This document shows positions 3,221 to 57,805 of a DNA stretch of 64,000 bases, piece by piece. The notes below the pieces were generated by a model that was not told the DNA's origin, made no database searches, and saw only the letters and a program-made list of their open reading frames with translations. Positions within the stretch are counted from its first letter, which is position 1. Every line of letters starts with the position of its first letter. The translations under genes and the position numbers were made by a program. The stretch lies in IMG/VR virus record IMGVR_UViG_3300021399_000118, positions 32,001-96,000 of that record. The stretch is one strand, 5' to 3'. This DNA comes from a virus (Duplodnaviria; Caudoviricetes).

Positions 3221-6200
3221 ATGGCAGACGAAATAGAAGTCAGAATAAAAACCATACTAGATGAAACATCTGTTAAAGATACAAAAAAGGTTCTTGAGGA
3301 AGAATATGAGGATCTTGCAGTTTCTCCAAACACAGATCTTGAAAAACGTCTTATGTCTGTCGGGGAGACGCTTCGAGAGAACGATTTTGATGCAATTATT
3401 CCGGAATTTGGAAGACAGTTTGAAACACAGGTTTCCATTATCAGCCAAAATGTTGCAAGGTTGATGGGTTTATATGATAAAATCGGCCAGGCACAAACAA
3501 AATATGATCGTAAAATTGCTGCTGATAACTTTGTCGCAGCTCAAAAAAGAGCGGCTGTTCAAGTCGCTGATCTTGAAACCGCAATTAATTCCGCTCAGGC
3601 ATTTACATCTTCAATGCCTGCGCATTTAGTAAATCCATTTGCTCAGATGTACCGCAAAGAGAGTCCTTCGATGAGGGCAAACTTTGTCCGAATGTCTTCT
3701 TCGAATGGCTCCGGTTTTATGTATGCAAACGGAGATCAGATGGCCAGGGATTTTGCGAAGGCTTTTTCGTCGCGGCAAGCCCAGGTCGGAACAAACGAAG
3801 AGTTAACTCGATTTATCCAAGAGTACGGATATGATCTTGCTGCGGCGCTGATGCCGATTATGTCAACCGGCTTTAATCGAGAAGATCTTGTCGGGTTTTC
3901 TTTTAATAAAAGAAAAGAAAACCCTGGAAGTATCAGACAGCTTTTACCAAAGGCTTTCCAGGGGCTTAGATTAACACAAACACCCGAATACAGAGCTTTT
4001 AATCACACATCTGAAAAGCTGAGCGAAACAGAACTTCAAGATCTGGAATCTTTTATTCTTTCATCTCAGGATCTGATGGAAGAGTTTGAACTGGCCGGCC
4101 TCGCGCAAAGAAAAAATGGGCGAATAAGGATTAATACAAACGCTACGAGAGAAAATATAGACGCCCTTGGCGGAAGACTTGCTTCTCTTTATGAGGCTGG
4201 GGCAAGAGGCATTTCCACGGATCCGAACGCAGAAATAATCGACGTAAATGATCCAAAATACATCCAACGGATCGCATCCAAGAACAATCGGTCGATGGTC
4301 TCCGCAAACAGAGGAATGCGCATTGCGGAAGAGATGTTTCCGTGGATTGTTCCCTCTTACGTTGAAACTCCGAAAACGGCTGCTTATGATAAAGACATTG
4401 GAAAAATCACAGCTTCTCCAAGATATAAAGCTGGATCTTTTACATTGCTTCCATTTGAAAATGAGGGTGAAGTTGAAAATCTTCCTGTTGTAAACAGCCT
4501 GATACAGCAAAGATTAGCAAAACTTCAAGGGGCAGACAAGTTTGTACACAACGGGAAAAACACAAACGAAATCTATATGAAGATGCCAGTAGAGGCTCTT
4601 CAGGATTTTGAAACAACGCCCGAGATGAGGCAGGAACTTGTTCAAAGAATAGCTGCTCAAATCGGAAGCGTACAGCACGCAAACGGATACGATTATGTAT
4701 TTACAGGGTTTACTGGGACCAACGCTGCTTTTACAAGAAAAGACTTGTATGACCAGGCTATTGCGCTTGACCCGAATTTCTTTACAAACGGTGAGAACCG
4801 AAGAAAATTTTCCGGCCAAGGAGCCGGGGCCGCGTTCGGTCATGCTGTGGATTATATGCAAAAGCAGAGAACGGACGGCGAAGACATTCGGGATTTATAC
4901 GGAACGGATCTAAGCGGAGCGAGAGTCATCGTTGCGGATCTAAAAAAGATTACAGGGCTTGATGGACAGAACTGGATATCGAATGACCTTGTCCCTGCGA
5001 CATTTCAAGGAAGAGATGTTTCCGGAAAATCTACATACAGCGTATTTTCCATGGAAGGATTACGGAGAAAATATGCTTCTCTGATTGATCCTGAAACAGG
5101 AGATCTTGTTTTCGACAAAGGCGGAATCGATGGAGGTGAACTCCGAATCCCGAAAGGCGGAAGCGTCATCCTCGAAGACTGGTCCAACATCAAAGCAAAC
5201 AACCAATACGCCGGGCTGTCTCAAGACGAAGTAAACCAGAAAAGAACTGAAATTGTCCGCAGAGACGGGATCTTTGCAAAGACAACAGCAGACGATGCCG
5301 CTACAAGCGCAAGATACATTTCATCTCAGGCGGCCGCAAGCCTTTCGCTTGACGACAAAGCGAGAGAATATTTCAGAAATGTCTATCTCGAACGTCTTGC
5401 CATGCTTCGAAATGAAGACCAGGTTAAAGAGCTTCTGTTCAGCGGACAGGATGGATTATCGAAAGCTGTCATGTCTGGCGAAGTGTCTATGGATGATCCG
5501 GATGTTCAGGCGCGAATTTTATCTTACCGCCGTGCGTTGACACATAATGTCGGAGAGGGAAACTTGCTTTTGCCTGCGCACATCGGCAAATATGCAATGC
5601 TGCAGGCGTGGCTTCCGGATGTGTTTAATCAGCTTGTCGATGAAAAGAAACTGACCGAAGATATGAAAGCTATGGGGCTGGAAGACGAAGCCATAGAGAA
5701 TTTTGATTATAAGCACAAAATAGCTTATTTTGCGAGCAAGGCTGACGAGCTGATGTCTTTCAGAAACCCTGATACGCTAAGCGGAAACCAAGCAGTTATT
5801 AACAGAGGAGCTGAAGATTTTTTTCAGACGCTTGCAGATGATTTAGGTCTTGACAAGCAAGCCTTATACGCAGATCCAAGATCAGCCATTTTAAGAAAGT
5901 GGCAAACAGCTGACGAAGACGGAGATACTGTCTTCATGAGCGCTCTTCGAGGAAACGGTGTTTTCGGAGAGATTATGGCAAGGGTTCTTGCGAAAACAGC
6001 TGAAGATTACAAGAATCTTATTGAAATGTCCGGGAGAACCCAGGAAGAACAAGAAGCCTACGCTCAAAGTCGGGTTCGCAGCACGGAAATTGACGGGAAA
6101 GAATGGAATCTTAACGATCCTCTTGATATGGCAACCTGGTTTTCTCTTCGTCAACAGCCCGGGGCTAAAATGGGCGCTGCTCATGCGGTTACCGTTGGAG

Positions 6201-9200
6201 CAAAGCAATTTCCTTTAAAAGGCACTTTTGCCAGAGCGCAGCTGGAAGCAGAATCACATTACGATAAAGTATCAAACGGAATCTATAAAAATTTCGAAGA
6301 CTGGGATCAAACGCCAGACGAATGGGAAGTTTTAAAGGGCGGTGCTCCGTTTTTTCGGCTGAATGAATGGCGGAACAAGGCGACACACTTAGCAGAGCTT
6401 CATGGTGCAGGGCAAGATGAAACAAAGGAAAAGCATTTTGATCAGGAATCGTTTAACAAAAAGAAAGTTGACTCAGTAAATTTTGCTTCAATCCATGATC
6501 CGCATGCTCTCGTTGCAGATTTTTCTCAATTTATAGCCGGGCAGGAAGATCCAGAATCTCTGCTGTCAAGCGTTCAGGGTGGAAATTGGGATGAAATCTT
6601 TTCAAATCTTCCTGAAGTATCTAAAAATAAAGAGGTCGCAGCGCTTCAAACAAGGCTTCGTGCTCTTCGGCAAGATAAACTTAACGGAAAGTTTTTAGCC
6701 TTTGACGACAGCGTGGTCCGCGAGTTAGGAGCTCTCTCAGCCAACGCATTGCACGCAATAACCGATGAAGTAAACAAGGATCCTCAATTTGACAGCGATG
6801 CAAAACGTACGGCAGAGATTGTGAGACGCTGGCGAGCAGCCGGAGGCGAAGTCCCAGCACATTTAAAAGAATGGGGTTTAACTCGTTCAAACATTGAAAA
6901 GAACCCTGAACTGAAAGCTGAAGTTCAAAAAGCGATTAACGCCTACGGAGAAGATCGCGTTTACGCAAGAAGCGATGCGGATGTTGGATATGTTTATTAT
7001 ACCCCTGAAGAGATTCAGGCTGACAGGGTTCGCAGAGCACACGACGCAGTCGAAAAGAAAAAGGCGGCTCTCGAACAGGCCAAGCTTGAAAAAGCAAAAG
7101 CTGATCAAGCAATAATCAGCGAAAAGAAGGCAGAAGCAGTAAACACAGAAACAGTTCGTGTCGAGGACGAAACACAAGCAGAAGCCAAGGAGTTAACCGC
7201 AAAAACACCGGAGACGAAACCTCAAGCCGTGTTAAACGAAAATGCCAATCCTCCTTTGGTTAATCCTCCTTCCACGCCAATTACCAATCCTCCTTCTCCG
7301 GCTTCCAGTAAACCTGATTCTGGAGATCACTGGCTCTTAGATAATTTAAGGGCAAGAATAGCAACTGCCAGAGAAATGGCCAAAAAATATCCGGACGACG
7401 ATAAATGGATAAAACAACTTGCAGAAGATGAGCGAATGTTAAAGGAAGCAGAGGAGTCCGGTGACAGAGTAAAGTGGGCCGAAGATCATATTCAAAATGC
7501 TACGGATAGATACAGACAGGAAAAGAAAGCTGATGAAGAATCCGAACTTCAGGCTCGCACAAAAAGAAACGGGGACATTGGACCAGTTAAAACGGAAAAC
7601 GAAGAACATTCGAAAGCTAAACGGAATCAAACTAAAGCATCTAAACCTCAAACAGCTGAACCTGAAGAAAATGATGAAAATATTAGAAGATTGGAAGCCG
7701 AGCTTGCTCAAGCGCAGGCTGAAGAAGAAAGGGAAATAAAAGCACAAAAAAATATTGAGGCGTATATGGCTGATCAGGCGGAGTATAATAGAATATATGC
7801 TTCTGCTCAGGATCTTTCGAATCAGTTCCGGATTAATAAAAGTGCAAAGAGAAACAAAATTGAAGGAAGAAGTCTTGCGGAAGGTTATTTTAACAGGAGT
7901 TACTACGGTGAATTTCGGCCACTGGATAGAGAAATAGCAGATTATATTAAAAATCATCCAGAAATGGATCCTAGCCAAACGGTTGCGCTGAATCAATTAA
8001 TCGCCCAAGCCAGGGGTGATATGTTTGAAGATTTTGCCAACAAAGGAACTCTTTTTGCCAAAGAATATGCCGACGATGTCGAAACAGAACTTAAAGGCAT
8101 AACAAATCCCGCGTCTAAACAGAAAAAAGTATTAGACAACTACACGAAGACGGCTGAGGAAGCTCAAAAGTTTATTGAGCAAATCGATAAAGTATTAAGC
8201 GATCCGAAGATAAAAAAAGATGATTCCAGTAGAAAAGCTTTAGAAAAGGCAAAAGAAAATATCAGTGCGTCGATTCAGCAAGGGAGTGCATTTCAGAGAG
8301 AGCTTGCGGAGCAATACAAAAAAGAAAATAACGAAAACGCTCTTTTAAGAACCGAAGATCTGAAGGCGAAATACAATAAGAATTATAAAAAGAGCGGAAA
8401 TTATCAGGCGATTCTTCGGAACAGAGAGATTGACGCGCTTCAAAAAGATTTAGATCAGCAGCAAAGAGAAGGATTGATCGGAGAAGACTCTTACAGCAAA
8501 GCATCTGAAGATCTTTCAAAGATGCGAGCGGATGCTGTTGGCTGGAAAATCGATATGACGGAAGGCCTCCAGAGCGTTGGTAAACTTGCATCGGAAACCG
8601 CTTCGAAAATGGTTCGGCAGTTTGGCCGGCAAATGTGGCAATCTGCGATAAACGAAACCAAGAAGTTTGTTCAGGAATACGACAAGAGCATGACCACTAT
8701 TCAGATGATCACACTTAAGTCGGACGACGAGATAAAGAGTCTTGGAACCGGATTGATCGGAAAAGCCAAGACGATGAAAATGACTGTTGGAGATGTTACG
8801 TCCACGGCAGAAAGTCTGTATCGTCAAGGGCTCACAGATTCTGAGGTAAACAGTCGGCTGGATACGATTCTTAAATTTTCTGCTGTGTCAGGGACTAAAG
8901 CGGAAGACGCCACAAAACTGATTACAACCGCAATGAACACGGGTCTGGTCAGCGGCGCACAAGAAGCAGCAGATATTGTAACTGCCTTGGGAGACAGTGC
9001 CGCTACTAACGCCGCCCAAATAGAGAAAGGCATTGAAAAAGCCGGTGCAGCCGCGGCTGTCGATGGAACGAGTTTTGCTGAGCTTGCGGCGATGCTTACG
9101 GCCATTACCGCAACCACACAGCTGACAGGCAATGTTGCTGGAACAACGATGAACTCTATTTTCGGAAGGATGAATAAAATCGGAACGAATGAGCTCATCG

Positions 9201-12200
9201 AGGACGAAAATGGTAATAAGATCAGCGCTTCTGCTATTGCTACGCTTTTGAGAGAACAGGGGATTCAAACCCATATTAACGGAGAAAAACGATCTTCCTT
9301 CGACATCCTGAAGGAGCTTTCGACCAAATGGCAAAGTTTGTCCGACGCAGAACAGCAACGACTTTCTACGGCCATTGCCGGAACAAGGCAATACTCCAAC
9401 TTCTCAGCTATTATGCTTGGTATGGCAGAAGGAAATATCGATCAATATCTTGATACTGCCGGAGAATCTGAAGGAATCGTTGACAAGAAATATGAAGTTT
9501 ACACAAGAAGCCTCGAAGCCGCATTAAACGATCTGAAAACAACCTGGGACAGCCTTGTTGCAGGAATACAAGAAAACGATATTGCAACCGGACTTGTCGA
9601 CGGACTGACTTCCTTATTGAGTGGTTTTAGCAATATTCAGTCTCAAGCAGGAAGTGTTGTTTCAGCTCTAATTTTAATCGCCGGTGCGATTTCTGCGATT
9701 GGTGTTGCCTCAGCCGCTGCAAAGCTGCCCGGATTTATTCCTAAACTTTTAGGAATTGCAGCAGGCGCAGCCGTCGTTGGCGGCGCAAGCTTGCTTGCGA
9801 ACCAATTTAAAGACATTGGAACTCAAAAAAATAAAAACGATAGTCCAGAAGCACTTATAGAAAAAAATGAAACCTTCAAAGCGAACGCTGCGGATCAAAG
9901 CAAATATTATCAAAACTTAATTGATGAGACAAACATCTTGGCAAAAAAGATAAAAGAGGGCACAGCAACAGGACGAGAAAGCAGCGATTTTGCATCAAAT
10001 GTTAATTTGCTTGGGGCGTCGTTTGAAAGTGTTGGTGCTTCTATTAACAGTGCAACAAGCGCTCTTGAAGGATGGGAATCTGCTTCAAGCCTTGCCCAGA
10101 ACGCTGCAGATGAAATAGCTGAAGCCAATAAAAAGATTATTCGCTCGAACGAAGAAGTTATCAGACAGAATATCAGAGAGAAGGCTCAGAAAGATTTTAA
10201 AGAAGCTTCAGTTAACAACGGATTCTCGAAAACCGGATTGGATCTACTTCAAACTCTTGAGACATACAGGCAAGGAAATGTTGATCGTTTCGAAGTCGAT
10301 GCTCGTTTGAGACAAATGGGCCTGGGTCTTGGGGAAGGCGTGTCCGACGCAAACGCACTAGCGTTCTACGACGTTTACAGTTTTACACAAGGAAACTCCG
10401 ATAATCCGTTCAAAGGAAGAGAATTAACGACAAAAGCTCTTCTTAGCCTTGCTGGCACAATTTTTACAAACAGAGGCGCAAGCGCAATCAGCAAAGCTCT
10501 CGGAGAAGGAGGAGCGACTGAGCTGGGGACGCTGTTTGAAGATTCTGATTCTTTTGTGGCAGCATTTCAAAACGGATTTAAAGACACCGAGCTCTCCTTT
10601 GCGACATATCAAAATCTTATTTCGCTAATTGGATCTATTATATCTGGCAACGCACCAGATGGTATTAAGTCTCTCATAGAGTTGTCGCAAGAAAATCCGG
10701 AAGAAAGAAAAATCATAGAGCGGGCAATCGATGATCAACTGGCAAATACTGATCAATATGCAAGCCTTGGATCCGAGGCAAAAGAGATTATTAGGAAAAA
10801 AGCAAAATCTTACGCGTCTGGCCTGTCTCTTGATGATGCCTATAATTTTGCGATTGGTGACAGGAAAGACCTTGAGGCATTTATCTTAAGTGAATCGAAA
10901 GAAGCTGCGAACAATCCGAATTACGTAGAAGAAGCCAAAAAAACTGGAACATATGTTCCTGTTTCCATTTCGGAATCTGTTGCAGCAGCATATTCTGCAC
11001 TTACGGGAAAGAACAGAAAATACGATACAGAATACCAGGCGCTGCTTTCTGATGTTGTTGCCGCCAGCGCCTCAGAGAACCCGATTGAGGCTTTAAAATC
11101 TTTAGAATCAAGCCGGCATAGTGCGATCGTCGGAAGTGAAGACGCCGAACTGTTAAAGATCTGGAATGATGTAAACGAAAATAATGGCCAAGGCGTTTAC
11201 AGCGTTGGAGATCTCAGAACTTACCTTGAAAACAAGGTATTTAGCTCTACTCCTGCGGCGAGAAAGCAAGGCAATCTGAATACCGCTTACAATCTTTCTC
11301 AGGCGAACGACTTGCTTCAGCGGCTCGCATCCAACGACAGAAGTCACGAAGCCCTGACACAGCTTGCTTCTATGACTGGTCTGGACATCGAACAAGTTCT
11401 CGCGAATCAGGAAAACGCTATTTCTCTTGCACAAGATTTACAGAATCAAAATGTTGAATCTTATCTGTCCAAAATAAGATCTGATGTAGACAAGGAATTC
11501 GGAGAAGAACTGAAAGATCCAAATAAACGCAACAAAGATCTTCAAGACAGAATTAACAAATCGCTTCAAGGAACAGGAGTAAGTCTTAAATCTTTTGACG
11601 AAAACGGAAATCCTGTTTACGAACATGATTTTACTTCTGTTAATCGTCGCGCAGGAGTTATGGATTATTCGACTCAGTACACCAACGCAGAGCTGATGGG
11701 TTATGCTAAACAGCTGGCTGAAAATGGTGGCACCTGGAACGAAATGTTTGCTACAGGCGGAACTTATCATGACTGGTCTAACGAACAGATCAACGCAGTC
11801 GCATCCTACTCCCCTGCCCTTGCCAGATATTTAAAGATGAGCGCCGATCAGAGAGCGTCCGCAGAAGGTCAGGCACTGAAACAGCAATACGAAATTCAGT
11901 TTAAAACAGAGGGCCTTGGAACCCTTGAACAAGCTGGGAACATTCTTCAGGGAACGGCCAGCCTTGTTGAGCGATTAAATCAGAACGGCACGATCAAGCT
12001 TAAAGCAGAATATGAAATAGCAAGTAATGCAACTGAGCGGCTGCAAAGAACTGCCATGCTAAACAACGGATCTTTAGCTGAACAGACTCAAGCCGTTTCT
12101 GAAATTACTGGCAGATCTGCAAGCGAGATTCAAACCAACTTTACGGCCTACAAGCAAGAAGCGCAGGAATACATTGCAGCTGAACGCGCCGCAACAAAGT

Positions 12201-15200
12201 CTTCTTATCAGAATCTTTACGAAAAAGCAGATTCTGAAGACGTACAAGAATACATTAAAAATCAAGCCGCGCGGGAAGGATTCATTTTAGAAGACGATGA
12301 AACCGAAGGAGCGAACGGCAAAAAAGTCTTCGTTGATCGCGGAGCTTCCAATGACTACAACTATCATGAAAATGCATTTCTCGGATCTTCCAGAAGCTAT
12401 ACAGACCTGGAACTTGCAAACGCAAGAAACGATATAATTCATGGTAAATTATCGACCAAGGCTGGAGACTATGAACTATATCGTGCGGCTTCTGCTTCTG
12501 GCGGCCGATATTTCCAGGAATACAACCGGATGCTTGCAGAGAATTCTATCAGTCCGAGGACGTATTCCAGGAAGGAAATGCGAGAAGCTAAGCGCCGGAT
12601 GGTGCAGGAAGAGGAGCTTGCCCGGAGGGACGCGGAAGAATCCCAAGCTCTTGAAGACGCAAAGCTCGCGTCTGGGACGCTTTTCGGAGCTCAGAATTAT
12701 GCAAGAGTTCGCTATGAACAAAACAACAAAACCGGATTGGCTGCGGATGCTGTATACCAAGCGCTCAACAGTGTCGATACGACAGAAGCCACCTGGATTG
12801 AATCTTTAAAAAATGTTTTATCCAATGAAAATAACAAGCAAAATATAATCGATTTAATAAACTCTTCTGACGCGGCTGCAAAAGCGATAGAAGATGCCGG
12901 GATCGCGTTTAATGAAGATGGCTCAATCAACCTTGACAGACTAACTTCTTCTGCGAACGGTGGCGCTTCTACTTTAGCTGCGCTCATGCAGAATGTTGCA
13001 GGCTTAAGCACTGGATACAGCGATCTGCAAGAAGTATTAACAGCTCAAGAAACAGGGAAACGTGCTCAGCAAGCTTTTAATAATCTTCAAAAAGGATACT
13101 TCATTTCTCAAGGAATGGCAGAGCAAGTCTATGATCAGGAAAGAAGGTCCGCAGAAGAAGAAATAAGAAACGAGCTTGCTCGTTCTGATCAATATAAAGA
13201 CAGCAGCGAAGAAGAAATCAATCGGCTTGTTGACGATCAACTTAAAAACAAAGGTCTTGCAAGTCTCAATGATTATCTGGAAAAAGAGCAAAAGGGAATT
13301 CTGGAAGATCAGGATTATGATTACCTGAAGACCGTGCTTGGAGAAGGATTGTCTCAAAAAGCATTGTCTAAAAGTCTCAACGAAGAAGAAACATCTTTAG
13401 CCAACACGCTTCTTGAAAATGCGGCTTACGGCTACAATGGATTGTCTGCCTCGCAAAGACTCGAAGGCATTAAAGAAATCGGGGGCAGGATCGCAAATAA
13501 TACCCTTACCGGCTACAGCTCTTATGCGGCAGATCAATATATGTCCGGCTGGTCTGGATGGCCGAGATTTTCTCAACTTCAGCAACAGCTTGAAGAGAAT
13601 GGAAAACTTGAAGGTGCGGATTTACAAGAGTATCAAGCCTTAAGTGCAGAATTTGAAAATCTTCAGAAAAACGCCGAGATTGAGATTAAGATTCAAGGTC
13701 TTGCAGAGCTCGAGGAAGCCGGGAAAATAATTCAAGGTACAGCTGACACGGTCAAGCAGCTTCAAAAAGGCGGAAGTTTTGAAATTCAAGCAAGGGTTAA
13801 GCTTGTTTCAGACCTTTATTCTGAAGCTCAGCTCGACGCCATGTTAAACAGTGGAAACGCCAATCTTGTTAATCAAGCTGCTCAACAAATAACAGGCGTA
13901 TCCGGAACACAATACAATGAAAACAGAGATTATTGGATCCAGCAAGCTCAGGCTATGCGGTCTACGAGAAGGACTCAAACAGCTGAAAGCTTGATGAAAG
14001 ATTACAATGCTGCTCAGGATAAAGAAGCTTTCCTTGCTTCGCTTGAAGGAGCCGGATGGAGTCTGCAAGGGTCTGTTTTCGATAAAGTTGCAACAGCAAA
14101 TTATCAAGAATCTGGTATTGTTCCGGAAGGATTTACAAGAAGAGGAAACAGATTATATCGTGATCCTGCGTTTGTTTACAATCAGGAAGATTACAAGTTT
14201 GACAATCCCTATGTTAACGCTGAAAAGAACTATACAGACGCTGAGCTCTTGCGGATGCGGAGACAAATTCAGAACGGCACGTTAACTGAAGGTATGACCG
14301 GATACGAAACAGCTTTCCGCAGCGGTGGGACAGAATGGGCTGAGTACCAGAGACTGCTTGCAAATCTTCCAAAGGAAGAGGAACGTACAGAAAAACAAAG
14401 AAAATCTCTCGAGGCTCAAAGGCAGAGAATGCTGCGCGAAGAGAGTCTTTCTGAAAGAGACATCCTGGAAACGGAAGAACTTGAAAACGCCCGGCTCCAA
14501 TCTGGTTCTCTTGGTGGAATGTTCAGTTATGCTCAGCTTCAGTATCAACAGAACAATAGAGCAGGCATGGCGGCCAATGCGCTTTATGAAACCCTGTCCG
14601 GAGCTAAAGTTGAGAGCGTAGATGATTTACTTGGAATCCTTGGAGACGAAAAGAATGCTCAAAACTGGAAGGATCTTATTGAGTCTTCTCCAGAGTTAAC
14701 AAAGAAGTTTAACGATCTCGGGATCACAATGGATAAAAATGGTCAATGGGACGTTTCCGGGCTTCAGGGAAGCGCAGACGCTGCGGCTGGAGCATTGTCT
14801 GCTTTAGCTCAAATTGTGGCCTCTACTTCCGCGGAATACAACAAAAGACAAGAAGTATATTCTACCGGTGAAAAATATTCTATGGCCTCAAGATATCTTT
14901 CTGGAGATATCACAGATGAAGAAGCGCAATATGCCGCACTTGAAGAAGTCATTGGAAATAGCGCTGCCGCTCAGCAGATTCGAAATTATAACGAAGATTA
15001 TACTGCAAGGTCAAACAGATGGCTTGCCGGGTATAACGAGGCTCTGGAATCCAGAGACCCAAATGCTGCTGAAAGATATTTAAGAGAAAATCCAAATCCC
15101 GCCAATGAAGAATATGATCCTTTAAGCGTGTTTAGCCCTGAAGAGCGAAGCGATGTAGAGATGATGATGACCAACGCCAAATATGGCGGGTCGTCTTTGA

Positions 15201-18200
15201 CTGAAGTACAACAATATAATAAACTTCAGGATATTTATGCAGCCGCTCAGAACGGTGGACTCGCGCAATATATGAACGAAGATACACTTGGATTATATAA
15301 TCAAGTCGGATCTTCTATTGAAGGATTTGGAGAGTGGGCTGCCGCAGTTCAAAGCATTCAAGAAGCTGGATTAAGTTTATCTGATTTTTCTGAAAGTTCA
15401 GAAGATTTTAAAACAGCCATTGAAAAATCTGGATCTTCAATGGGGCGCTTTGCTGAAATTAATAAGTCGATGAACGCGGAAATCAGAGCAAGAGGAATTG
15501 AGACCATGCGCAAATATGGGCAATCCTCTTCTGATGTTGCAAATTATCTCCGTGCGATGGCTAAAGGAGGCAAAGAAGCTTCTAATGCGCAGGCTCAGCT
15601 CAGACAAAAATTGTCTCAGTGGAACAACGCTGCGAATGCAATAAAAAAGGCCGAAGGGAAAAGCGGAAAACAGTTAGCAGATAAAGACGTCGCTGATCTT
15701 TCTGCTATCACAGGAGAGGATTCCAATCTGATCAAAGAGATGACAAAAGAACAGATTGAGAATCTAAGACAAAATGCTCAAGGAATTATCGACGAAGGTT
15801 TTGTGAATGAACTTGGTGGAATAATTACTGAGCAGTTAAACCAGCATTTTGCAAATAATCCTGTCGCATTTGATATGGCCGTCAAAGCAGACGTTAATGG
15901 AGACGGAGCGCTTGATTTAAGCGAAATTGCAACTATTGCTCAAGAACTGAGAGATCAAGGCCTGGCAGAGCTTGCTGCTTATGCGGGGTTAATCGGAACA
16001 CTGCTTGTCAACGTTACAAAGAGTGGAAATTCCGCAACGGCAATCGCAGAAGTTGTCGAAGGTTCTGTTAACGGATCCGGCAAGCGAACTGGCGGTGGCG
16101 GCGGAGGAGGCGGTGGCGGTAAGTCCGCAGTCGATCAACTCCTTGAACGCCAAAAACACGAGATAGCTCAACAGCAACATGAAATCAAGATGTCTCAGAT
16201 TCAGGAAGCTCATTATGAGCGACTGAACGATTATGATAACTATCTCAGCTCCCTTGACGAAGAAATTGAAAAGCAAACAGAACTATACAATATATACCAA
16301 CGGCATCTCAAAGAACTAATCGAGATGCAAAATGGTCTGGAAAAATATTCCGATGACTGGTGGAAATTACAGGAGCAAATCAACAGTTCCACAGAAGCCG
16401 CAGAGGAATATCTTGATACTGTTGCAGAAATTAACGCTAAAAAGATTACTGCCACTCAAACCAAGCAGGAAAACGAAGATAAACCCGGCTCTCACAGGAC
16501 AACCATGTTTGAAAAACGTGCCCAGTACTATATGGATAGAGGGCAGTTTGAAAACTATGCGGTGCTCGTCGAGAAGGAAGTTGCCCAGATGCGGGCGGAC
16601 ATTGCCTTAAACGATAAGCAGATCACAGAATGGGAAGGAATGCTTACTCAGTATGAGGAGAATTCCAAGGAATGGATCGAAGTCAGAGATAAGATCTGGG
16701 CAACAAAAGAAGAGAACGCTGACCTGGAGAACCAGGCGTTCGAAAGAATTTCTGAACTTCAACAGCAAAGAATCTCTCAGATCCAAACTGATTATCAGAA
16801 TGGCGTTGCACCGATCGAACATGAGCAGAATATGCTCGGCATCTGGGGAAGCATTTATCAAAACGCCGGCCGGTCTGTATATTACGACGAAGAAGGCAAC
16901 CAGCACACCATGCAGGAAGCCTACAGGAATACCCTGGATCAGGACACCGCTTACAACGAACAGACTCTTACCAGGATCCGGTCAACGATCAAACTTCTTC
17001 AGGAACAAATGGCAACTCTCGATGAAGGGACTGAGGCCTGGTATGCAGCCCGGGACGCGATCTATCAATACGAAGAGCAGGAAGCTCAGCTTGTCGCAAA
17101 GAATCAGGAAAACGACATTGCGAAAGAAGAATCCTACGTTACCGAGCTGACGGATAAACGAGAAGCCCGCACCAAGGAGCTTGAGCATGAGCTCAACATG
17201 ATCGAAACCATCCAGGAAAGATTTGAAAACAGCAACGATTACGAGAACTCTGAGAATATGATGGAGGAGCGGCGGGCCAAGCTCGAAGAAATGAGAGAAC
17301 AGGCTGCCAGGAATCTGGAAGAAGCTCAGGCCCTGTTAAACAGCGGAAAGCTCGATCCAGGCGGAGACAGATATAAAACGGTCCGAGACGACGTTATGCA
17401 GCTGACCGAGGAATACGAGAAGCTGACAAACGAAGTTGAGAACGCCGACCGGAAGATTCAGGAAACCAAACTGGAGCATATCCTGGAGAAGTTCGAAAAT
17501 CAGGACGGGCTGATCCAGCATCAGTTAAAGCTTGTTCAGTATGAACAGACCCGCTACCAGAACAGCGGAGAGTTAACCAACTACGGAACGATGCTGGAAA
17601 TCGAGAACGACCTGCAGAGAGACCGGGCTGAACTGCTGAAAGAACAGATCGGGTTACTGGAGGAACAGCTCGAAGCGGCTGAACCTGGCTCCGACACATA
17701 CCAGAAGATCACCAAAGAAATTTATAAGATGGAAGAGTCCCTGGCCTCTGTCAATAACACGATCGAGAAGAACAACGAAGCGATCCGAAAGAACCAGGAG
17801 AATATTGTCAAGACTCGGAAAGCTTTAATTGACATGATCGATCGCGAGATCAAAACAAGGGTTAAGGAACAGAGAGACCGGCTGAACGCTGAAGTCTCCA
17901 TTCAGAATCAGATCCTCAACATCATCCGCAACAGATATAAACAGGAATGGGCTATCGTCAAAGCTGATATCGACAAGAAAAAGCAGGCCCTTCAGGAGGA
18001 GAAGGCGTTAATCAACGAAAGGCTGAACGCCAGGATCAACGCGGAGAAGGAAGAGGAAAGATACACCAAGCTTTCTGAGCTTCAGAGACAGCTTACCTTA
18101 ATTTCGGCCGATCCTACCAGAACAAAGGACGCGATTGAACTTCAGCGGCAGATCGACGATCTCTTAAAAGAGATTGCCAACGAAACTGCTCAACAAGAGG

Positions 18201-19573
18201 CCAACGCGGCCGGAGAACAGCTGGACGATCAGATCAAAGCCTACGACGCGTATGCTCAATACACCGAGGAAGCTTTGAACGAAATGCTGAAGGACGCCAA
18301 CAGCACAGAACTTTTCGAAGAATTGAACGCTGTTATGGGTGACGAAAGTATGTCCAGGGAAGAGCGGCTTGAAAATTACATGAACTGGATCAAAGAAAAT
18401 GACGATAACTATAAGTTCGGCACCGAAGCCATGCGGCTACAGCTCGAACAGAACAACACGGACTCCTGGAACAAGATGCTTGGATTCGTGGATACTTACT
18501 GGGATCAGGTAGAGGATATCATCAGCGGCGGGGCTCAAAGCATTATTGATTACATGAAGGAAAGCTCCTCTTACATCTGGAATTCCGATGCTGGGCAGAG
18601 GCTGCTTGAACTGCAGTGGAACGATACCTATGATAAATACGTTAAATCTACGATTGACGACGCTGTATTCAACGATATTCACGAGCTTGCGGAATATGCT
18701 TCTCAGCTTCAGGACTATACCTATAAAGTAGAGCTGACGCCGGAATCCATTTACAGGCTTGGGATTTACGACAGCGAGTTAAAGTATCAATACGAGAGAG
18801 ATAAGAGTGTAAGTGATGAAGCTAAGAATTACGATCCGAACGATATGTACAAAGATGTCGGGAAGAAAGTTGTTCCTGTCGCAAATACGGGATATACAGC
18901 TGAGTATTCCAGCAATGTAAACTCAGGAGGAAACGGTGGTTCGAACGGAAAAGGAAAGACAAAATATAACTTTACTTTAACGGACGACGCTTCAGGTCAA
19001 GTGCATCATCTTACGTTAGAGGCATCTTCTCAGTTAGAAGCTCTGGAGAAGATGCAGAGTTATGTTTATGAAATGGCTCAAAAACGCAAAGACGCATCAA
19101 ATCCAGGAACATCGTATACAGGACAACTCACAGACAAAAAATGGAATGGAATCAAAGATACAGAATATACGGCGTTTACCGATTATGAAGCTGCTCTTGC
19201 TTTTGAAAAGAATCTTGAGCGGCTTAAAAGAAGTGGTATGAGCGCCTATGCTTCCGGCGGTCTTGTTGATTACACCGGCCCGGCATGGGTTGACGGAACT
19301 CCTACCAGACCCGAAGCTTTCCTTGACGCAACCGACACAGAAAATATTCGTGCCATGCTGGATGCGCTTAACTATGTGCCAACGATGCCTATGCTCTCCC
19401 CTTCCGAGAAGTTCTTCGGGAACAGCTCTACCGTGGGAGACATCAACATCGTGATCAACCAGGCCGAGCTGAAGAGCGACGCGGATTATAACGAAGTCGC
19501 AAGGAGGGTCGGACAGGCCTTTACCAAGCAGCTTTCCAAGGATGGCTTCCAATTATCAGGATATAACTGGTAA
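3221..19573 (+). CDS. Giant tape measure protein (5450 aa) with an N-terminal YonO/QDE-1-like RNA polymerase domain
   Basis: TP901-type TMP core at ~aa 1815-2110 (EYDKSMTTIQMIT...AESLYRQG); hydrophobic segments ~aa 2145-2195; long coiled coils; TMP-type C-terminus YASGGLVDYTGPAWVDGT..PE; directly followed by Dit and Tal; RNAP motifs including DEDGD at aa 898-902. Confidence 0.92.
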   Translation: MADEIEVRIKTILDETSVKDTKKVLEEEYEDLAVSPNTDLEKRLMSVGETLRENDFDAIIPEFGRQFETQVSIISQNVARLMGLYDKIGQAQTKYDRKIAADNFVAAQKRAAVQVADLETAINSAQAFTSSMPAHLVNPFAQMYRKESPSMRANFVRMSSSNGSGFMYANGDQMARDFAKAFSSRQAQVGTNEELTRFIQEYGYDLAAALMPIMSTGFNREDLVGFSFNKRKENPGSIRQLLPKAFQGLRLTQTPEYRAFNHTSEKLSETELQDLESFILSSQDLMEEFELAGLAQRKNGRIRINTNATRENIDALGGRLASLYEAGARGISTDPNAEIIDVNDPKYIQRIASKNNRSMVSANRGMRIAEEMFPWIVPSYVETPKTAAYDKDIGKITASPRYKAGSFTLLPFENEGEVENLPVVNSLIQQRLAKLQGADKFVHNGKNTNEIYMKMPVEALQDFETTPEMRQELVQRIAAQIGSVQHANGYDYVFTGFTGTNAAFTRKDLYDQAIALDPNFFTNGENRRKFSGQGAGAAFGHAVDYMQKQRTDGEDIRDLYGTDLSGARVIVADLKKITGLDGQNWISNDLVPATFQGRDVSGKSTYSVFSMEGLRRKYASLIDPETGDLVFDKGGIDGGELRIPKGGSVILEDWSNIKANNQYAGLSQDEVNQKRTEIVRRDGIFAKTTADDAATSARYISSQAAASLSLDDKAREYFRNVYLERLAMLRNEDQVKELLFSGQDGLSKAVMSGEVSMDDPDVQARILSYRRALTHNVGEGNLLLPAHIGKYAMLQAWLPDVFNQLVDEKKLTEDMKAMGLEDEAIENFDYKHKIAYFASKADELMSFRNPDTLSGNQAVINRGAEDFFQTLADDLGLDKQALYADPRSAILRKWQTADEDGDTVFMSALRGNGVFGEIMARVLAKTAEDYKNLIEMSGRTQEEQEAYAQSRVRSTEIDGKEWNLNDPLDMATWFSLRQQPGAKMGAAHAVTVGAKQFPLKGTFARAQLEAESHYDKVSNGIYKNFEDWDQTPDEWEVLKGGAPFFRLNEWRNKATHLAELHGAGQDETKEKHFDQESFNKKKVDSVNFASIHDPHALVADFSQFIAGQEDPESLLSSVQGGNWDEIFSNLPEVSKNKEVAALQTRLRALRQDKLNGKFLAFDDSVVRELGALSANALHAITDEVNKDPQFDSDAKRTAEIVRRWRAAGGEVPAHLKEWGLTRSNIEKNPELKAEVQKAINAYGEDRVYARSDADVGYVYYTPEEIQADRVRRAHDAVEKKKAALEQAKLEKAKADQAIISEKKAEAVNTETVRVEDETQAEAKELTAKTPETKPQAVLNENANPPLVNPPSTPITNPPSPASSKPDSGDHWLLDNLRARIATAREMAKKYPDDDKWIKQLAEDERMLKEAEESGDRVKWAEDHIQNATDRYRQEKKADEESELQARTKRNGDIGPVKTENEEHSKAKRNQTKASKPQTAEPEENDENIRRLEAELAQAQAEEEREIKAQKNIEAYMADQAEYNRIYASAQDLSNQFRINKSAKRNKIEGRSLAEGYFNRSYYGEFRPLDREIADYIKNHPEMDPSQTVALNQLIAQARGDMFEDFANKGTLFAKEYADDVETELKGITNPASKQKKVLDNYTKTAEEAQKFIEQIDKVLSDPKIKKDDSSRKALEKAKENISASIQQGSAFQRELAEQYKKENNENALLRTEDLKAKYNKNYKKSGNYQAILRNREIDALQKDLDQQQREGLIGEDSYSKASEDLSKMRADAVGWKIDMTEGLQSVGKLASETASKMVRQFGRQMWQSAINETKKFVQEYDKSMTTIQMITLKSDDEIKSLGTGLIGKAKTMKMTVGDVTSTAESLYRQGLTDSEVNSRLDTILKFSAVSGTKAEDATKLITTAMNTGLVSGAQEAADIVTALGDSAATNAAQIEKGIEKAGAAAAVDGTSFAELAAMLTAITATTQLTGNVAGTTMNSIFGRMNKIGTNELIEDENGNKISASAIATLLREQGIQTHINGEKRSSFDILKELSTKWQSLSDAEQQRLSTAIAGTRQYSNFSAIMLGMAEGNIDQYLDTAGESEGIVDKKYEVYTRSLEAALNDLKTTWDSLVAGIQENDIATGLVDGLTSLLSGFSNIQSQAGSVVSALILIAGAISAIGVASAAAKLPGFIPKLLGIAAGAAVVGGASLLANQFKDIGTQKNKNDSPEALIEKNETFKANAADQSKYYQNLIDETNILAKKIKEGTATGRESSDFASNVNLLGASFESVGASINSATSALEGWESASSLAQNAADEIAEANKKIIRSNEEVIRQNIREKAQKDFKEASVNNGFSKTGLDLLQTLETYRQGNVDRFEVDARLRQMGLGLGEGVSDANALAFYDVYSFTQGNSDNPFKGRELTTKALLSLAGTIFTNRGASAISKALGEGGATELGTLFEDSDSFVAAFQNGFKDTELSFATYQNLISLIGSIISGNAPDGIKSLIELSQENPEERKIIERAIDDQLANTDQYASLGSEAKEIIRKKAKSYASGLSLDDAYNFAIGDRKDLEAFILSESKEAANNPNYVEEAKKTGTYVPVSISESVAAAYSALTGKNRKYDTEYQALLSDVVAASASENPIEALKSLESSRHSAIVGSEDAELLKIWNDVNENNGQGVYSVGDLRTYLENKVFSSTPAARKQGNLNTAYNLSQANDLLQRLASNDRSHEALTQLASMTGLDIEQVLANQENAISLAQDLQNQNVESYLSKIRSDVDKEFGEELKDPNKRNKDLQDRINKSLQGTGVSLKSFDENGNPVYEHDFTSVNRRAGVMDYSTQYTNAELMGYAKQLAENGGTWNEMFATGGTYHDWSNEQINAVASYSPALARYLKMSADQRASAEGQALKQQYEIQFKTEGLGTLEQAGNILQGTASLVERLNQNGTIKLKAEYEIASNATERLQRTAMLNNGSLAEQTQAVSEITGRSASEIQTNFTAYKQEAQEYIAAERAATKSSYQNLYEKADSEDVQEYIKNQAAREGFILEDDETEGANGKKVFVDRGASNDYNYHENAFLGSSRSYTDLELANARNDIIHGKLSTKAGDYELYRAASASGGRYFQEYNRMLAENSISPRTYSRKEMREAKRRMVQEEELARRDAEESQALEDAKLASGTLFGAQNYARVRYEQNNKTGLAADAVYQALNSVDTTEATWIESLKNVLSNENNKQNIIDLINSSDAAAKAIEDAGIAFNEDGSINLDRLTSSANGGASTLAALMQNVAGLSTGYSDLQEVLTAQETGKRAQQAFNNLQKGYFISQGMAEQVYDQERRSAEEEIRNELARSDQYKDSSEEEINRLVDDQLKNKGLASLNDYLEKEQKGILEDQDYDYLKTVLGEGLSQKALSKSLNEEETSLANTLLENAAYGYNGLSASQRLEGIKEIGGRIANNTLTGYSSYAADQYMSGWSGWPRFSQLQQQLEENGKLEGADLQEYQALSAEFENLQKNAEIEIKIQGLAELEEAGKIIQGTADTVKQLQKGGSFEIQARVKLVSDLYSEAQLDAMLNSGNANLVNQAAQQITGVSGTQYNENRDYWIQQAQAMRSTRRTQTAESLMKDYNAAQDKEAFLASLEGAGWSLQGSVFDKVATANYQESGIVPEGFTRRGNRLYRDPAFVYNQEDYKFDNPYVNAEKNYTDAELLRMRRQIQNGTLTEGMTGYETAFRSGGTEWAEYQRLLANLPKEEERTEKQRKSLEAQRQRMLREESLSERDILETEELENARLQSGSLGGMFSYAQLQYQQNNRAGMAANALYETLSGAKVESVDDLLGILGDEKNAQNWKDLIESSPELTKKFNDLGITMDKNGQWDVSGLQGSADAAAGALSALAQIVASTSAEYNKRQEVYSTGEKYSMASRYLSGDITDEEAQYAALEEVIGNSAAAQQIRNYNEDYTARSNRWLAGYNEALESRDPNAAERYLRENPNPANEEYDPLSVFSPEERSDVEMMMTNAKYGGSSLTEVQQYNKLQDIYAAAQNGGLAQYMNEDTLGLYNQVGSSIEGFGEWAAAVQSIQEAGLSLSDFSESSEDFKTAIEKSGSSMGRFAEINKSMNAEIRARGIETMRKYGQSSSDVANYLRAMAKGGKEASNAQAQLRQKLSQWNNAANAIKKAEGKSGKQLADKDVADLSAITGEDSNLIKEMTKEQIENLRQNAQGIIDEGFVNELGGIITEQLNQHFANNPVAFDMAVKADVNGDGALDLSEIATIAQELRDQGLAELAAYAGLIGTLLVNVTKSGNSATAIAEVVEGSVNGSGKRTGGGGGGGGGGKSAVDQLLERQKHEIAQQQHEIKMSQIQEAHYERLNDYDNYLSSLDEEIEKQTELYNIYQRHLKELIEMQNGLEKYSDDWWKLQEQINSSTEAAEEYLDTVAEINAKKITATQTKQENEDKPGSHRTTMFEKRAQYYMDRGQFENYAVLVEKEVAQMRADIALNDKQITEWEGMLTQYEENSKEWIEVRDKIWATKEENADLENQAFERISELQQQRISQIQTDYQNGVAPIEHEQNMLGIWGSIYQNAGRSVYYDEEGNQHTMQEAYRNTLDQDTAYNEQTLTRIRSTIKLLQEQMATLDEGTEAWYAARDAIYQYEEQEAQLVAKNQENDIAKEESYVTELTDKREARTKELEHELNMIETIQERFENSNDYENSENMMEERRAKLEEMREQAARNLEEAQALLNSGKLDPGGDRYKTVRDDVMQLTEEYEKLTNEVENADRKIQETKLEHILEKFENQDGLIQHQLKLVQYEQTRYQNSGELTNYGTMLEIENDLQRDRAELLKEQIGLLEEQLEAAEPGSDTYQKITKEIYKMEESLASVNNTIEKNNEAIRKNQENIVKTRKALIDMIDREIKTRVKEQRDRLNAEVSIQNQILNIIRNRYKQEWAIVKADIDKKKQALQEEKALINERLNARINAEKEEERYTKLSELQRQLTLISADPTRTKDAIELQRQIDDLLKEIANETAQQEANAAGEQLDDQIKAYDAYAQYTEEALNEMLKDANSTELFEELNAVMGDESMSREERLENYMNWIKENDDNYKFGTEAMRLQLEQNNTDSWNKMLGFVDTYWDQVEDIISGGAQSIIDYMKESSSYIWNSDAGQRLLELQWNDTYDKYVKSTIDDAVFNDIHELAEYASQLQDYTYKVELTPESIYRLGIYDSELKYQYERDKSVSDEAKNYDPNDMYKDVGKKVVPVANTGYTAEYSSNVNSGGNGGSNGKGKTKYNFTLTDDASGQVHHLTLEASSQLEALEKMQSYVYEMAQKRKDASNPGTSYTGQLTDKKWNGIKDTEYTAFTDYEAALAFEKNLERLKRSGMSAYASGGLVDYTGPAWVDGTPTRPEAFLDATDTENIRAMLDALNYVPTMPMLSPSEKFFGNSSTVGDINIVINQAELKSDADYNEVARRVGQAFTKQLSKDGFQLSGYNW
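4500..6900 (+). other. Putative double-psi beta-barrel RNA polymerase domain within the TMP (approximate limits)
   Basis: Ordered motifs D581-G (LDGQNWIS), F595QGRDVSGK603, S-N-I-K658, I700SSQ, R848NP, D898EDGD902. Confidence 0.75.
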
Positions 19574-57500: not shown

Positions 57501-57537
57501 TTATTTCGCCTCCTCAATCTATTCATGCTATTTGTAG

Positions 57538-57610
57538 TACTACCGCCCGGATTCGAACCGGGAATCTTCGGCTTATAAGGCCGCGGCTCTGACCCTTGAG
57601 CTACGGTAGC
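57538..57610 (-). tRNA. trnI: tRNA-Ile(UAU)
   Basis: GCTACCG-TA-GCTC..GAGC-C-GCGGC-CT TAT AA-GCCGA-AGATT-CCCGG-TTCGAAT-CCGGG-CGGTAGT-A; CCA not encoded. Confidence 0.85.
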
Positions 57611-57617
57611 ATATTCA

Positions 57618-57797
57618 GTGAGGTGCGCCATAACTGCGACACCTCACCTACTCCTGCTAATCACATCGTGCCGGACACTACTCCGCCTTGATATGCAACC
57701 TCGGAGACGGCAGAGGCATGGTCGCGTACTTCAACCTTGTCCTTGATCCGTTGGTGAGACGGACTGTAACAAGGCGGCTCCGTGTTTCGCTTGCCGG
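57618..57797 (-). ncRNA. Unidentified structured RNA between the two tRNAs
   Basis: Nested stems CCGG/CCGG, ACAC/GTGT and CCGCCTTG/CAAGGCGG enclosing hairpins; separate GTGAGGTG/CACCTCAC hairpin. Confidence 0.45.
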
Positions 57798-57805
57798 TTA
57801 TAGAT

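What the first reader, a model, noticed from the sequence alone, without database searches (positions are those of the whole stretch)
3221..9800. Tape measure protein fused to a YonO/QDE-1-type single-subunit RNA polymerase: candidate tail-delivered virion RNAP
Seen in sequence: upstream of a clear TP901-type TMP core (~aa 1815-2110) is a ~1250-aa globular region, set off by a Pro-rich linker (~aa 1340-1366). It contains, in order: LDGQNWIS (D581), TFQGRDVSGK (K603), WSNIK (K658), YISSQAAASL (Q703), GNLLLP, FRNPDT (R848), ADEDGDTV (D898/D900/D902, nt 5912-5926) and KMG..H. Established: cellular RdRPs (QDE-1 family) and SPbeta YonO have the collinear series DGxGxIS, FQxRxxxxKG, SxxK, LNxQ, RxP, DxDGD, with RxP roughly 45-50 aa before the metal-binding DxDGD; here the distance is 50 aa. 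crAss-like phages and N4 inject virion RNAPs as separate proteins, and TMPs are ejected at infection and can span the membrane. Inference: this temperate siphophage packs an RNAP on its TMP and delivers it with the DNA for early transcription or transcription-driven genome entry. I do not know of a characterised TMP-RNAP fusion.
Basis: partly seen in the sequence, partly recalled or inferred. Interest (0 to 1): 0.95.

Follow-up and report, generated by a model that had tools for sequence, protein, structure and literature searches.

The report
RNA polymerase fused to tape measure
The first 1,250 residues of this ruminant-gut phage's giant 5,450-residue tail tape measure protein fold as a complete cell-type (two-barrel) RNA polymerase, so the phage probably injects its own transcription enzyme; this strategy is already proven in Thermus phage P23-45, but here it sits in an unrelated sequence family.

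Summary
The ORF is far longer than reported: 3221-19573, 5,450 aa.

An AlphaFold model of aa 130-1260 (pLDDT 85) matches only two-barrel RNA polymerases. These are QDE-1 (Foldseek E 7e-12; Z 16), plant RDR2, Thermus-phage gp62/gp64 and gp96, and crAss-like gp66. A TP901-type tape measure core (TIGR01760, aa 1819-2161) and two membrane-like segments follow, then Dit and Tal genes.

P23-45 gp96 is exactly that (Chaban et al. 2024, PMC10770324).

What is new here:
- The family (about 67 clusters, 31 of them giants of 3,700-6,000 aa) has no detectable sequence similarity to gp96.
- Its nearest relative is a free YonO-like gene in the same genome (hhalign E 3e-5).
- The genome and its relatives carry two free YonO-like polymerases as well, making three in all.

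Virion presence and enzyme activity are untested. This scan has noted TMP-linked polymerases on other DNA before. Verdict: a real feature and a new variant of a known kind.

The parts
3221..19573 (+). Single ORF of 5,450 aa: giant tape measure protein with an N-terminal RNA polymerase
   Evidence: uninterrupted frame; 31 homologues of 3,695-6,027 aa share this architecture; an independent sheep-gut contig is colinear over nt 4379-8352.
3221..3934 (+). N-terminal helical region (aa 1-238), modelled with low confidence over aa 130-238; function unknown
   Evidence: model residues 1-109 have pLDDT 33-72 and are mostly helices. Aa 1-129 were not modelled.
3935..6976 (+). Two-barrel single-chain RNA polymerase domain (aa ~239-1252)
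   Evidence: pLDDT mostly 85-97. Foldseek QDE-1 E 7e-12. Z 16.2 to RDR2, 16.1 to P74 gp62, 16.0 to QDE-1 and 12.0 to P23-45 gp96; hhalign E 3.3e-5 to the co-resident YonO-like Y848.
4922..5287 (+). First barrel region (DPBB-B-like, aa ~568-689) with D581-G582, R598, K603 and K658
   Evidence: beta strands at model residues 439-560. G582, R598, K603 and K658 invariant. R598, K603 and K658 align to R243, K248 and K295 of Y848. The barrel assignment rests on motif order and strand content, not on coordinates.
5582..5947 (+). Second barrel (DPBB-A, aa ~788-909) with R848-x-P850 and the metal-binding loop
   Evidence: many isolated DPBB domains and beta-prime/Rpb1 barrels align to model residues 659-780 (Z 6-7.6). 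R848, P850, D898, D900 and D902 invariant.
5912..5926 (+). Catalytic Asp triad D898-E-D900-G-D902 (family consensus Q-G-[AE]-D-F-D-G-D)
   Evidence: It aligns in register with DYDGD of Y848, DWDGD of Y940, DFDGD 779-783 of gp96 and DYDGD 326-330 of gp64.
7238..7318 (+). Pro-rich linker (aa ~1340-1366) between the polymerase and the tape measure body
   Evidence: sequence; a bovine-gut contig has an in-frame 24-nt deletion at 7278, as expected of a tolerant linker.
8675..9703 (+). TP901-type tape measure core (aa 1819-2161)
   Evidence: TIGR01760 E 2.8e-25. PF10145 E 1.8e-22; nine PHROG tape-measure families.
9635..9802 (+). Two hydrophobic membrane-like segments (aa 2139-2169 and 2175-2194)
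   Evidence: Kyte-Doolittle window means of 2.3 and 1.7.
9803..19573 (+). Long ruler part of the tape measure protein (aa 2195-5450), with a Gly run, coiled-coil-rich stretches and a conserved C-terminal end
   Evidence: sequence. E+K+Q fraction of 0.28-0.33 over aa 4251-5000; the C-terminal columns are conserved among the giant homologues.
19703..20803 (+). Distal tail protein (Dit), the next gene downstream
   Evidence: phrog_33 E 4e-17. PF05709.
20810..26440 (+). Tail-associated lysin or tip protein (Tal-like, 1,876 aa) with an SPbeta YomG-type N-terminus
   Evidence: PF24049 YOMG_N and PF06605 Prophage_tail; phrog_6211.

Best explanation
ORF 3221-19573 encodes a 5,450-aa tail tape measure protein. 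Its N-terminal ~1,250 residues are a catalytically intact, single-chain two-barrel DNA-dependent RNA polymerase of the YonO/QDE-1 clade. The protein is built into the tail. On infection it is ejected ahead of the DNA, and its membrane-like segments help form the entry channel. The polymerase end then meets the leading end of the genome and transcribes the first-entering (pre-early) genes without host RNA polymerase. This may also help draw the DNA in. The two free YonO-like polymerases in the same genome (848 aa and 940 aa, both outside the window) would then take over later gene classes. Shown here: the fold, conservation of the catalytic residues, the fusion architecture and its conservation, the tail-module context, and the paralogy signal to the free YonO-like gene. 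Inferred by analogy with P23-45 gp96: presence in virions, enzyme activity, ejection, template and timing.
For: The fold model has pLDDT 85.2 and pTM 0.79. All Foldseek PDB hits below E 0.01 are two-barrel RNAPs: QDE-1 at 7e-12, RDR2, P74 gp62, P32 gp64 and phi14:2 gp66. The independent aligner gives Z 16.2, 16.1 and 16.0 to RDR2, gp62 and QDE-1 over 435-534 residues, and Z 12.0 to the TMP-fused gp96 polymerase. The best BFVD hits are phage 'RdRP' proteins (2e-13) and P23-45 gp64. The catalytic D898/D900/D902, R848-x-P, R598, K603, K658 and Q703 are invariant in 37 sequences down to 22% identity. The family profile against the co-resident YonO-like Y848 gives E 3.3e-5, with all eight of these residues aligned to identical residues. 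Against the Y940 family profile it gives E 6e-5. The tape measure identity rests on TIGR01760, PF10145 and PHROG hits, two membrane-like segments, and Dit and Tal immediately downstream. The fusion is conserved: 31 of 38 long homologues are 3,695-6,027 aa with the domain at the same N-terminal position. An independent sheep-gut contig is colinear from the active site through the linker. By my own count of the 37 in-ORF variant positions printed (a hand count, not a tool output), 33 fall at the third codon position, which indicates purifying selection. For the precedent, gp96 of P23-45 is in virions, is active in vitro, and binds and transcribes pre-early genes (PMC10770324).
Against: There is no direct evidence that the protein is in virions or is active. 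Pfam RdRP (PF05183), PHROGs, NCBIfam and PDB sequence searches do not recognise the domain, so homology rests on fold and profile-profile alignment. No repeated promoter-like motif was found, and the record is only 86% complete. How a ~115-kDa folded domain would sit in or pass through a tail tube is unknown.
Confidence: 0.8

Rival explanations
1. The polymerase is virion-borne but works only after release. A protease cuts at or near the Pro-rich linker during tail maturation or after ejection, and the free ~150-kDa enzyme transcribes early genes in the cytoplasm, uncoupled from the entry pore.
For: There is a distinct Pro-rich linker plus ~450 aa of charged coiled coil between the polymerase and the TMP core. 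The linker tolerates an in-frame 8-codon deletion. Many tape measure proteins are processed (established knowledge).
Against: In P23-45 the polymerase domain is found in virions as part of full-length gp96 (PMC10770324). No protease domain was found in this protein.
Confidence: 0.12
2. The domain is an exapted, non-catalytic remnant of a polymerase. It would serve a structural or assembly role in the tail, for example as a plug, a chaperone-binding module or a DNA-end binder.
For: The domain is too diverged for Pfam RdRP. Its N-terminal position in the TMP is where assembly chaperones act in other siphophages (established knowledge).
Against: Every residue needed for catalysis is invariant over sequences that are otherwise 22-58% identical: the three Asp, R-x-P and the basic residues of the other barrel. 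That pattern is not expected of a scaffold. The variants printed lie mostly at the third codon position.
Confidence: 0.04
3. The enzyme makes RNA for a purpose other than gene expression. Examples are priming of phage DNA replication, RNA-templated synthesis as in QDE-1/RDR2, or a decoy or anti-defence RNA.
For: The best structural matches are RNA-dependent enzymes (QDE-1, RDR2), and QDE-1 uses both DNA and RNA templates (the PDB titles listed show complexes with each). The genome also encodes a reverse transcriptase next to Y940.
Against: All characterised phage members of this clade are DNA-dependent transcriptases: YonO (PMC5467207), gp96 and gp64 (PMC10770324) and, by its PDB title, phi14:2 gp66. 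The genome has its own primase-helicase and Pol III alpha.
Confidence: 0.04

Closest known systems
Thermus phage P23-45 gp96 (with P74-26, G20c and TSP4 homologues): tape-measure-fused virion RNA polymerase (Chaban et al., Nat Commun 2024, PMC10770324; PDB 8h2m/8h2n)
   Same: Both are giant tape measure proteins (5,002 vs 5,450 aa) with a single-chain two-barrel RNAP at the N-terminus. The DxDGD loop is at a similar position (aa 779 vs 898), with about 350 further residues to the end of the polymerase. Membrane segments follow in the TMP body. Free paralogous RNAP gene(s) lie in the same genome. Structural match Z 12.0 over 378 residues.
   Different: No sequence similarity is detectable (HMM against PDB finds nothing; hhalign E 0.04; no BLASTP match of the TMP bodies). 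No metallopeptidase domain was found here. This genome has two free paralogues rather than one. The habitat is the mesophilic ruminant gut and the phage is SPbeta-like, rather than a thermophilic Oshimavirus. Whether it shares the clamp-less flat shape was not tested.
Bacillus prophage SPbeta YonO and YonO-like proteins (Pfam PF05183 RdRP, phrog_8308), including the two free copies in this genome
   Same: These are the nearest detectable relatives: hhalign E 3.3e-5 to Y848 and 6e-5 to the Y940 family. The motif order is the same (DG, R..K, K, S.Q, RxP, DxDGD) and the spacing is near-identical (DG to R 17-18 residues, R to K 5). YonO itself is a proven DNA-dependent RNAP for late genes (PMC5467207).
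   Different: YonO-like proteins are free 800-950-aa proteins, and YonO acts on late genes and is not described as a tail component. The TMP-fused domain is not recognised by PF05183 or phrog_8308. It has an RxP to DxDGD spacing of 50 rather than 41-43, and extra N-terminal structure.
Eukaryotic RNA-silencing polymerases QDE-1 and RDR2
   Same: These are the best fold matches (Foldseek E 7e-12; Z 16.0-16.2 over 511-534 residues).
   Different: Sequence identity is 10-11%. They are eukaryotic cellular enzymes working on RNA or single-stranded DNA, with no link to a virion structure.
crAss-like phage phi14:2 gp66 virion RNA polymerase (PDB 6vr4)
   Same: It is a virion-packaged two-barrel RNAP embedded in a very large protein and ejected into the host.
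   Different: The structural match is weak (Foldseek E 9e-3; Z 7.7). gp66 is a podovirus cargo protein, not a tape measure.

Membership tests
Two-barrel (double-psi beta-barrel) RNA polymerase superfamily, single-subunit phage/plasmid/RdRP clade | Overall fold with two DPBB domains, matching solved members | tested here: met
   QDE-1 E 7e-12; Z 16 to RDR2, gp62 and QDE-1; isolated DPBB domains hit model residues 659-780.
Two-barrel (double-psi beta-barrel) RNA polymerase superfamily, single-subunit phage/plasmid/RdRP clade | DxDxD metal-binding loop, conserved in homologues | tested here: met
   D898, D900 and D902 are invariant in 37 sequences and lie in register with the triads of Y848, Y940, gp96 and gp64.
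Two-barrel (double-psi beta-barrel) RNA polymerase superfamily, single-subunit phage/plasmid/RdRP clade | [RK]xP 20-100 residues before DxDxD (the filter used by Chaban et al., Supplementary Data 4) and conserved basic residues in the other barrel | tested here: met
   R848-N-P850 lies 50 residues before D898. R598, K603 and K658 are invariant.
Two-barrel (double-psi beta-barrel) RNA polymerase superfamily, single-subunit phage/plasmid/RdRP clade | Conserved residues converge on one active site in three dimensions | not testable with these tools
   Model coordinates are not exposed to scripts (one search lists the /data folder).
Two-barrel (double-psi beta-barrel) RNA polymerase superfamily, single-subunit phage/plasmid/RdRP clade | Template-dependent RNA synthesis | not testable with these tools
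   This needs a biochemical assay.
Pfam PF05183 RdRP / phrog_8308 (YonO-like sequence family) | Match to the family HMM above its cut-off | tested here: not met
   There was no Pfam or PHROG hit in aa 1-1400 at E <= 0.1 or 0.01. Y848 and Y940 of the same genome do match both. Only profile-profile alignment links them.
P23-45 gp96-type tape-measure-fused virion RNAP | RNAP domain and tape measure in one polypeptide within the tail module | tested here: met
P23-45 gp96-type tape-measure-fused virion RNAP | Sequence homology to gp96 | tested here: inconclusive
   hhalign gives E 0.042 with RxP and DxDGD in register. HMM against PDB sequences finds nothing. BLASTP finds nothing significant between the whole proteins.
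P23-45 gp96-type tape-measure-fused virion RNAP | A paralogous non-virion RNAP encoded in the same genome | tested here: met
   Y848 and Y940. Orthologues of both are present in related phages.
P23-45 gp96-type tape-measure-fused virion RNAP | Presence in virions and transcription of pre-early genes | not testable with these tools
   This needs virion proteomics, ChIP-seq or RNA-seq on an isolate.
P23-45 gp96-type tape-measure-fused virion RNAP | Clamp-less flat architecture | not tested
   No coordinates were available to measure the shape.
TP901-type phage tail tape measure protein | TIGR01760 / PF10145 core, hydrophobic segments after it, and a gene position directly before Dit and Tal | tested here: met

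The most novel reading that the evidence does not exclude
The tape-measure-RNAP fusion arose here independently of the Thermus-phage one, by duplication of a YonO-like gene inside an SPbeta-like lineage. These ruminant-gut phages would then run a three-polymerase relay (one injected on the tape measure, two made after entry) that frees the whole infection cycle from host RNA polymerase. On this reading, fusing a polymerase to the tape measure is a recurrent, convergent solution for long-tailed phages.
Probability: 0.45. Interest if true: 0.65.

Novelty: new variant of a known kind. Interest (0 to 1): 0.55.

Why it matters
The one proven case of a polymerase riding on a tape measure could be read as an oddity of thermophilic phages. 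This family shows the same arrangement in mesophilic gut phages with a different sequence lineage. It therefore argues that tail-delivered transcription is a general strategy. It also offers a second system for testing whether transcription is coupled to DNA entry, and how a ~115-kDa enzyme is stored in or passed through a tail tube. The conserved trio of polymerases suggests a temporal relay that could be dissected. For annotation, giant 'tape measure' genes should be checked for hidden polymerases that Pfam and PHROGs miss.

Tried and rejected
- Sequence searches with the N-terminal 1,400 aa found no family: Pfam, PHROGs, NCBIfam, phmmer against PDB, and an HMM of 7 homologues against PDB.
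- tblastn against 50,697 GenBank phage records found no match.
- hhalign of a 7-sequence profile against single Y940 and Y848 with default settings was not significant. A 37-sequence profile with local, low-mact settings was needed.
A trimmed alignment, A3, was used instead.
- A scan of 185,579 species genomes for prophage copies found none. The scan depends on a short peptide pattern, so this is weak evidence against lysogeny.
- A search for repeated intergenic 10-mers as candidate phage promoters found nothing above 3-4 copies. The record is incomplete, so this says little.
- No RNA holder was listed among the sequencing runs, so expression could not be examined.
- Self-BLAST of the protein gave no internal repeat at E <= 1e-5, although two ~40-aa stretches look similar by eye.
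- An assembly or gene-call artefact (two genes read as one) was considered and rejected. The fusion recurs in 31 giant homologues, and an independent contig is colinear across the junction.


Full report
**What is there.** The window is bases 32,001-96,000 of a 120,915-bp IMG/VR virus record estimated to be 86% complete. The finding lies in one uninterrupted ORF, 3221-19573 on the + strand, of 5,450 aa. The tape measure identity is solid. PF10145 matches aa 1840-2054 at E 2e-22, TIGR01760 (tape_meas_TP901) matches aa 1819-2161 at E 3e-25, and nine PHROG tape-measure families hit the same region. Two hydrophobic segments follow at aa 2139-2194. The next genes are a distal tail protein and a 1,876-aa tip protein with an SPbeta YomG-type N-terminus. 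Terminase, portal and head genes lie upstream in the genome.

**Is the N-terminal region a polymerase?** Sequence libraries say nothing. Pfam, PHROGs, NCBIfam and PDB sequences give no hit for aa 1-1400. An exhaustive phmmer search of 1.84 billion cluster representatives found 67 relatives. Of the 38 longest, 31 are giants of 3,695-6,027 aa with the matching region at the same N-terminal position. In alignments of 37 of these (22-58% identity to the query), the following are invariant: G582, R598, K603, K658, Q703, G780, P785, R848, P850, N861, D878, D898, D900 and D902. The family consensus around the triad is Q-G-[AE]-D-F-D-G-D.

An AlphaFold2 model of aa 130-1260, built on a 21-sequence alignment, has mean pLDDT 85.2 and pTM 0.79. 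Foldseek against the PDB returns only two-barrel RNA polymerases below E 0.01: QDE-1 (7e-12), plant RDR2, Thermus-phage P74 gp62 and P32 gp64, and the crAss-like phi14:2 virion polymerase. An aligner that does not depend on Foldseek gives these matches:

| Target | Z | Aligned residues |
|---|---|---|
| RDR2 | 16.2 | 511 |
| P74 gp62 | 16.1 | 435 |
| QDE-1 | 16.0 | 534 |
| P23-45 gp96 | 12.0 | 378 |
| phi14:2 gp66 | 7.7 | 539 |

Below these comes a long tail of isolated DPBB domains and beta-prime/Rpb1 barrels, all on model residues 659-780, the barrel that carries the Asp triad. Among viral predicted structures the best hits are phage proteins labelled 'RdRP' (2e-13) and P23-45 gp64.

**It is not an assembly artefact.** Besides the 31 giant homologues, a contig from an independent sheep-gut study is colinear with nt 4379-8352, with 129 substitutions and no gaps. 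It runs from before the first barrel through the linker. A bovine-gut contig carries an in-frame 24-nt deletion at 7278, inside the Pro-rich linker. I counted the variant positions printed in that call by hand, not with a tool: of the 37 that lie within the ORF, 33 fall on the third codon position, which is the signature of a translated gene under purifying selection. The stretch is held at shares of 0.22-0.42 in sheep and bovine gut runs from four studies other than the likely source.

**What is already known.** Chaban et al. (Nat Commun 2024, PMC10770324) showed the following for P23-45 gp96:
- It is present in virions as part of the full-length protein.
- Fragments of 1,200 aa or more extend RNA in vitro.
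- It occupies and transcribes a 9-kb pre-early region that includes the gene for a second, non-virion polymerase, gp64.

They propose that the enzyme sits at the TMP pore and transcribes as the DNA enters. Their survey lists gp96-type proteins only in Thermus phages. A full-text search for later papers found no report of such fusions elsewhere.

**How this one differs.** I fetched P23-45 and compared the families directly. BLASTP finds nothing significant between the two giant proteins, and an HMM of this family does not find gp96, gp62/64 or QDE-1 among PDB sequences. The phage genome also encodes two free YonO-like proteins outside the window:
- Y848, at genome 14369-16915 on the minus strand
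- Y940, at genome 112632-115454 on the minus strand

Both match Pfam RdRP PF05183 and phrog_8308. They share the same motif order and almost the same spacing as the TMP domain: DG to R is 17-18 residues, R to K is 5, and RxP to DxDGD is 41, 43 and 50.

In a like-for-like test, the 37-sequence profile was aligned against single sequences:

| Target | E-value | Residues in register |
|---|---|---|
| Y848 | 3.3e-5 | R, K, K, Q, R, D, D, D all identical |
| Y940 | 0.045 | D, R, K, Q, R and the Asp triad identical |
| gp96 N-terminus | 0.042 | RxP and DxDGD |
| gp64 | 0.07 | RxP arginine, the second lysine and the Asp triad |

Against the 41-sequence Y940-family profile the value is 6e-5 over 743 columns. 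As an internal control, gp96 and gp64 pair with each other at E 0.0017, as published. Four related viral contigs carry orthologues of Y848 (54-62% identity) and/or Y940 (57-59%). The set of one fused and two free polymerases is therefore a lineage feature.

The simplest reading is that the fused domain descends from a YonO-like duplication within this SPbeta-like group, in parallel with the gp96/gp64 duplication in Thermus phages. That would make the fusion convergent. This is an inference. Tape measure bodies evolve fast, the Thermus side is represented by single sequences, and an ancient common fusion cannot be excluded.

**Mechanism proposed.**
- Shown: a conserved, apparently catalytically intact two-barrel polymerase is covalently joined, through a Pro-rich linker and ~450 aa of charged helix, to a TP901-type tape measure with membrane segments, in a siphovirus tail module.
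- Inferred from gp96 and from general tape measure biology: the protein is assembled in the tail and leaves it first on infection. Its hydrophobic part helps form the channel. The N-terminal polymerase, which lies at the head-proximal end next to the DNA terminus, engages the first DNA to enter and transcribes pre-early genes independently of the host enzyme. One or both free YonO-like enzymes then transcribe later classes, as YonO does for SPbeta late genes (PMC5467207).
- Also inferred: at about 1.5 Å per residue, a ~4,100-aa ruler part implies a tail of roughly 600 nm.

Rivals, each with low weight, are release of the polymerase by cleavage at the linker, a non-catalytic structural remnant, and a role other than transcription.

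**Limits.** No isolate, proteome or transcriptome exists for this phage, and model coordinates could not be inspected. No promoter motif was found. 'Temperate' rests on one integrase hit, against no prophage copy in 185,579 species genomes.

**Relation to earlier notes of this scan.** The same stretch was also read in an overlapping window (e1-5885107). Tail-module or TMP-fused polymerases have been noted on other DNA in at least 67 genomes, including an SPbeta-like sheep-gut phage (e1-5844185). None is a close sequence relative of this one.

**Verdict.** The kind is known, but this is a distinct variant: a different sequence family nearest to YonO, a three-polymerase set, and a mesophilic gut habitat.

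Noticed in passing
window 1139-3118 (minus strand): A 659-aa antisense ORF sits between a small tail-chaperone-position gene (725-1069) and the tape measure gene, in a low-GC patch (0.38). It has no Pfam, PHROG or NCBIfam family. Its N-terminus resembles a cold-shock domain (Pfam CSD E 0.005; Atlas structure TM 0.74-0.79 by the target). It may be a moron or a regulator inserted in the tail operon.
   Followed up: partly
genome 14369-16915 (-) = L007:14369-16915 and genome 112632-115454 (-) = L010:8632-11454, both outside the window: Two free YonO-like RNA polymerases (848 and 940 aa, 25% identical to each other, with DYDGD and DWDGD loops). Orthologues of both are found in related phages. Y940 has a Cys-rich C-terminal tail (CxxC motifs).
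   Followed up: partly
L020:697-6153: A family member (P0011, 1,818 aa) translates to the database protein only if TAG is read as Gln, so some relatives of this phage group may use a recoded stop codon.
   Followed up: no
genome 115751-116887 (-) = L010:11751-12887: A reverse transcriptase gene (PF00078, E 4e-23) lies just upstream of the Y940 gene on the minus strand, separated from it by a ~300-bp intergenic region. Another reader of this scan noted a retron-like RNA there.
   Followed up: no
window 7278 (aa ~1352): A bovine-gut contig carries an in-frame 24-nt deletion inside the Pro-rich linker, so linker length varies between strains.
   Followed up: no
window 30595-38241: A second giant tail-region protein (2,548 aa) has SH3_3 and DUF6273 domains and a strong match to phrog_14959 (E 2e-62, unknown function).
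   Followed up: no
window 57537-57879 (minus strand): tRNA-Ile (anticodon TAT) and tRNA-Trp genes lie within a 1.1-kb stretch free of ORFs.
   Followed up: no
whole genome: Among 64 further ORFs scanned, one each matches Phage_integrase, ThiF (E1-like), RNase H, RNA ligase, SSB and a PD-(D/E)XK nuclease. The genome also has Pol III alpha and a primase-helicase, an SPbeta-like replication set.
   Followed up: partly
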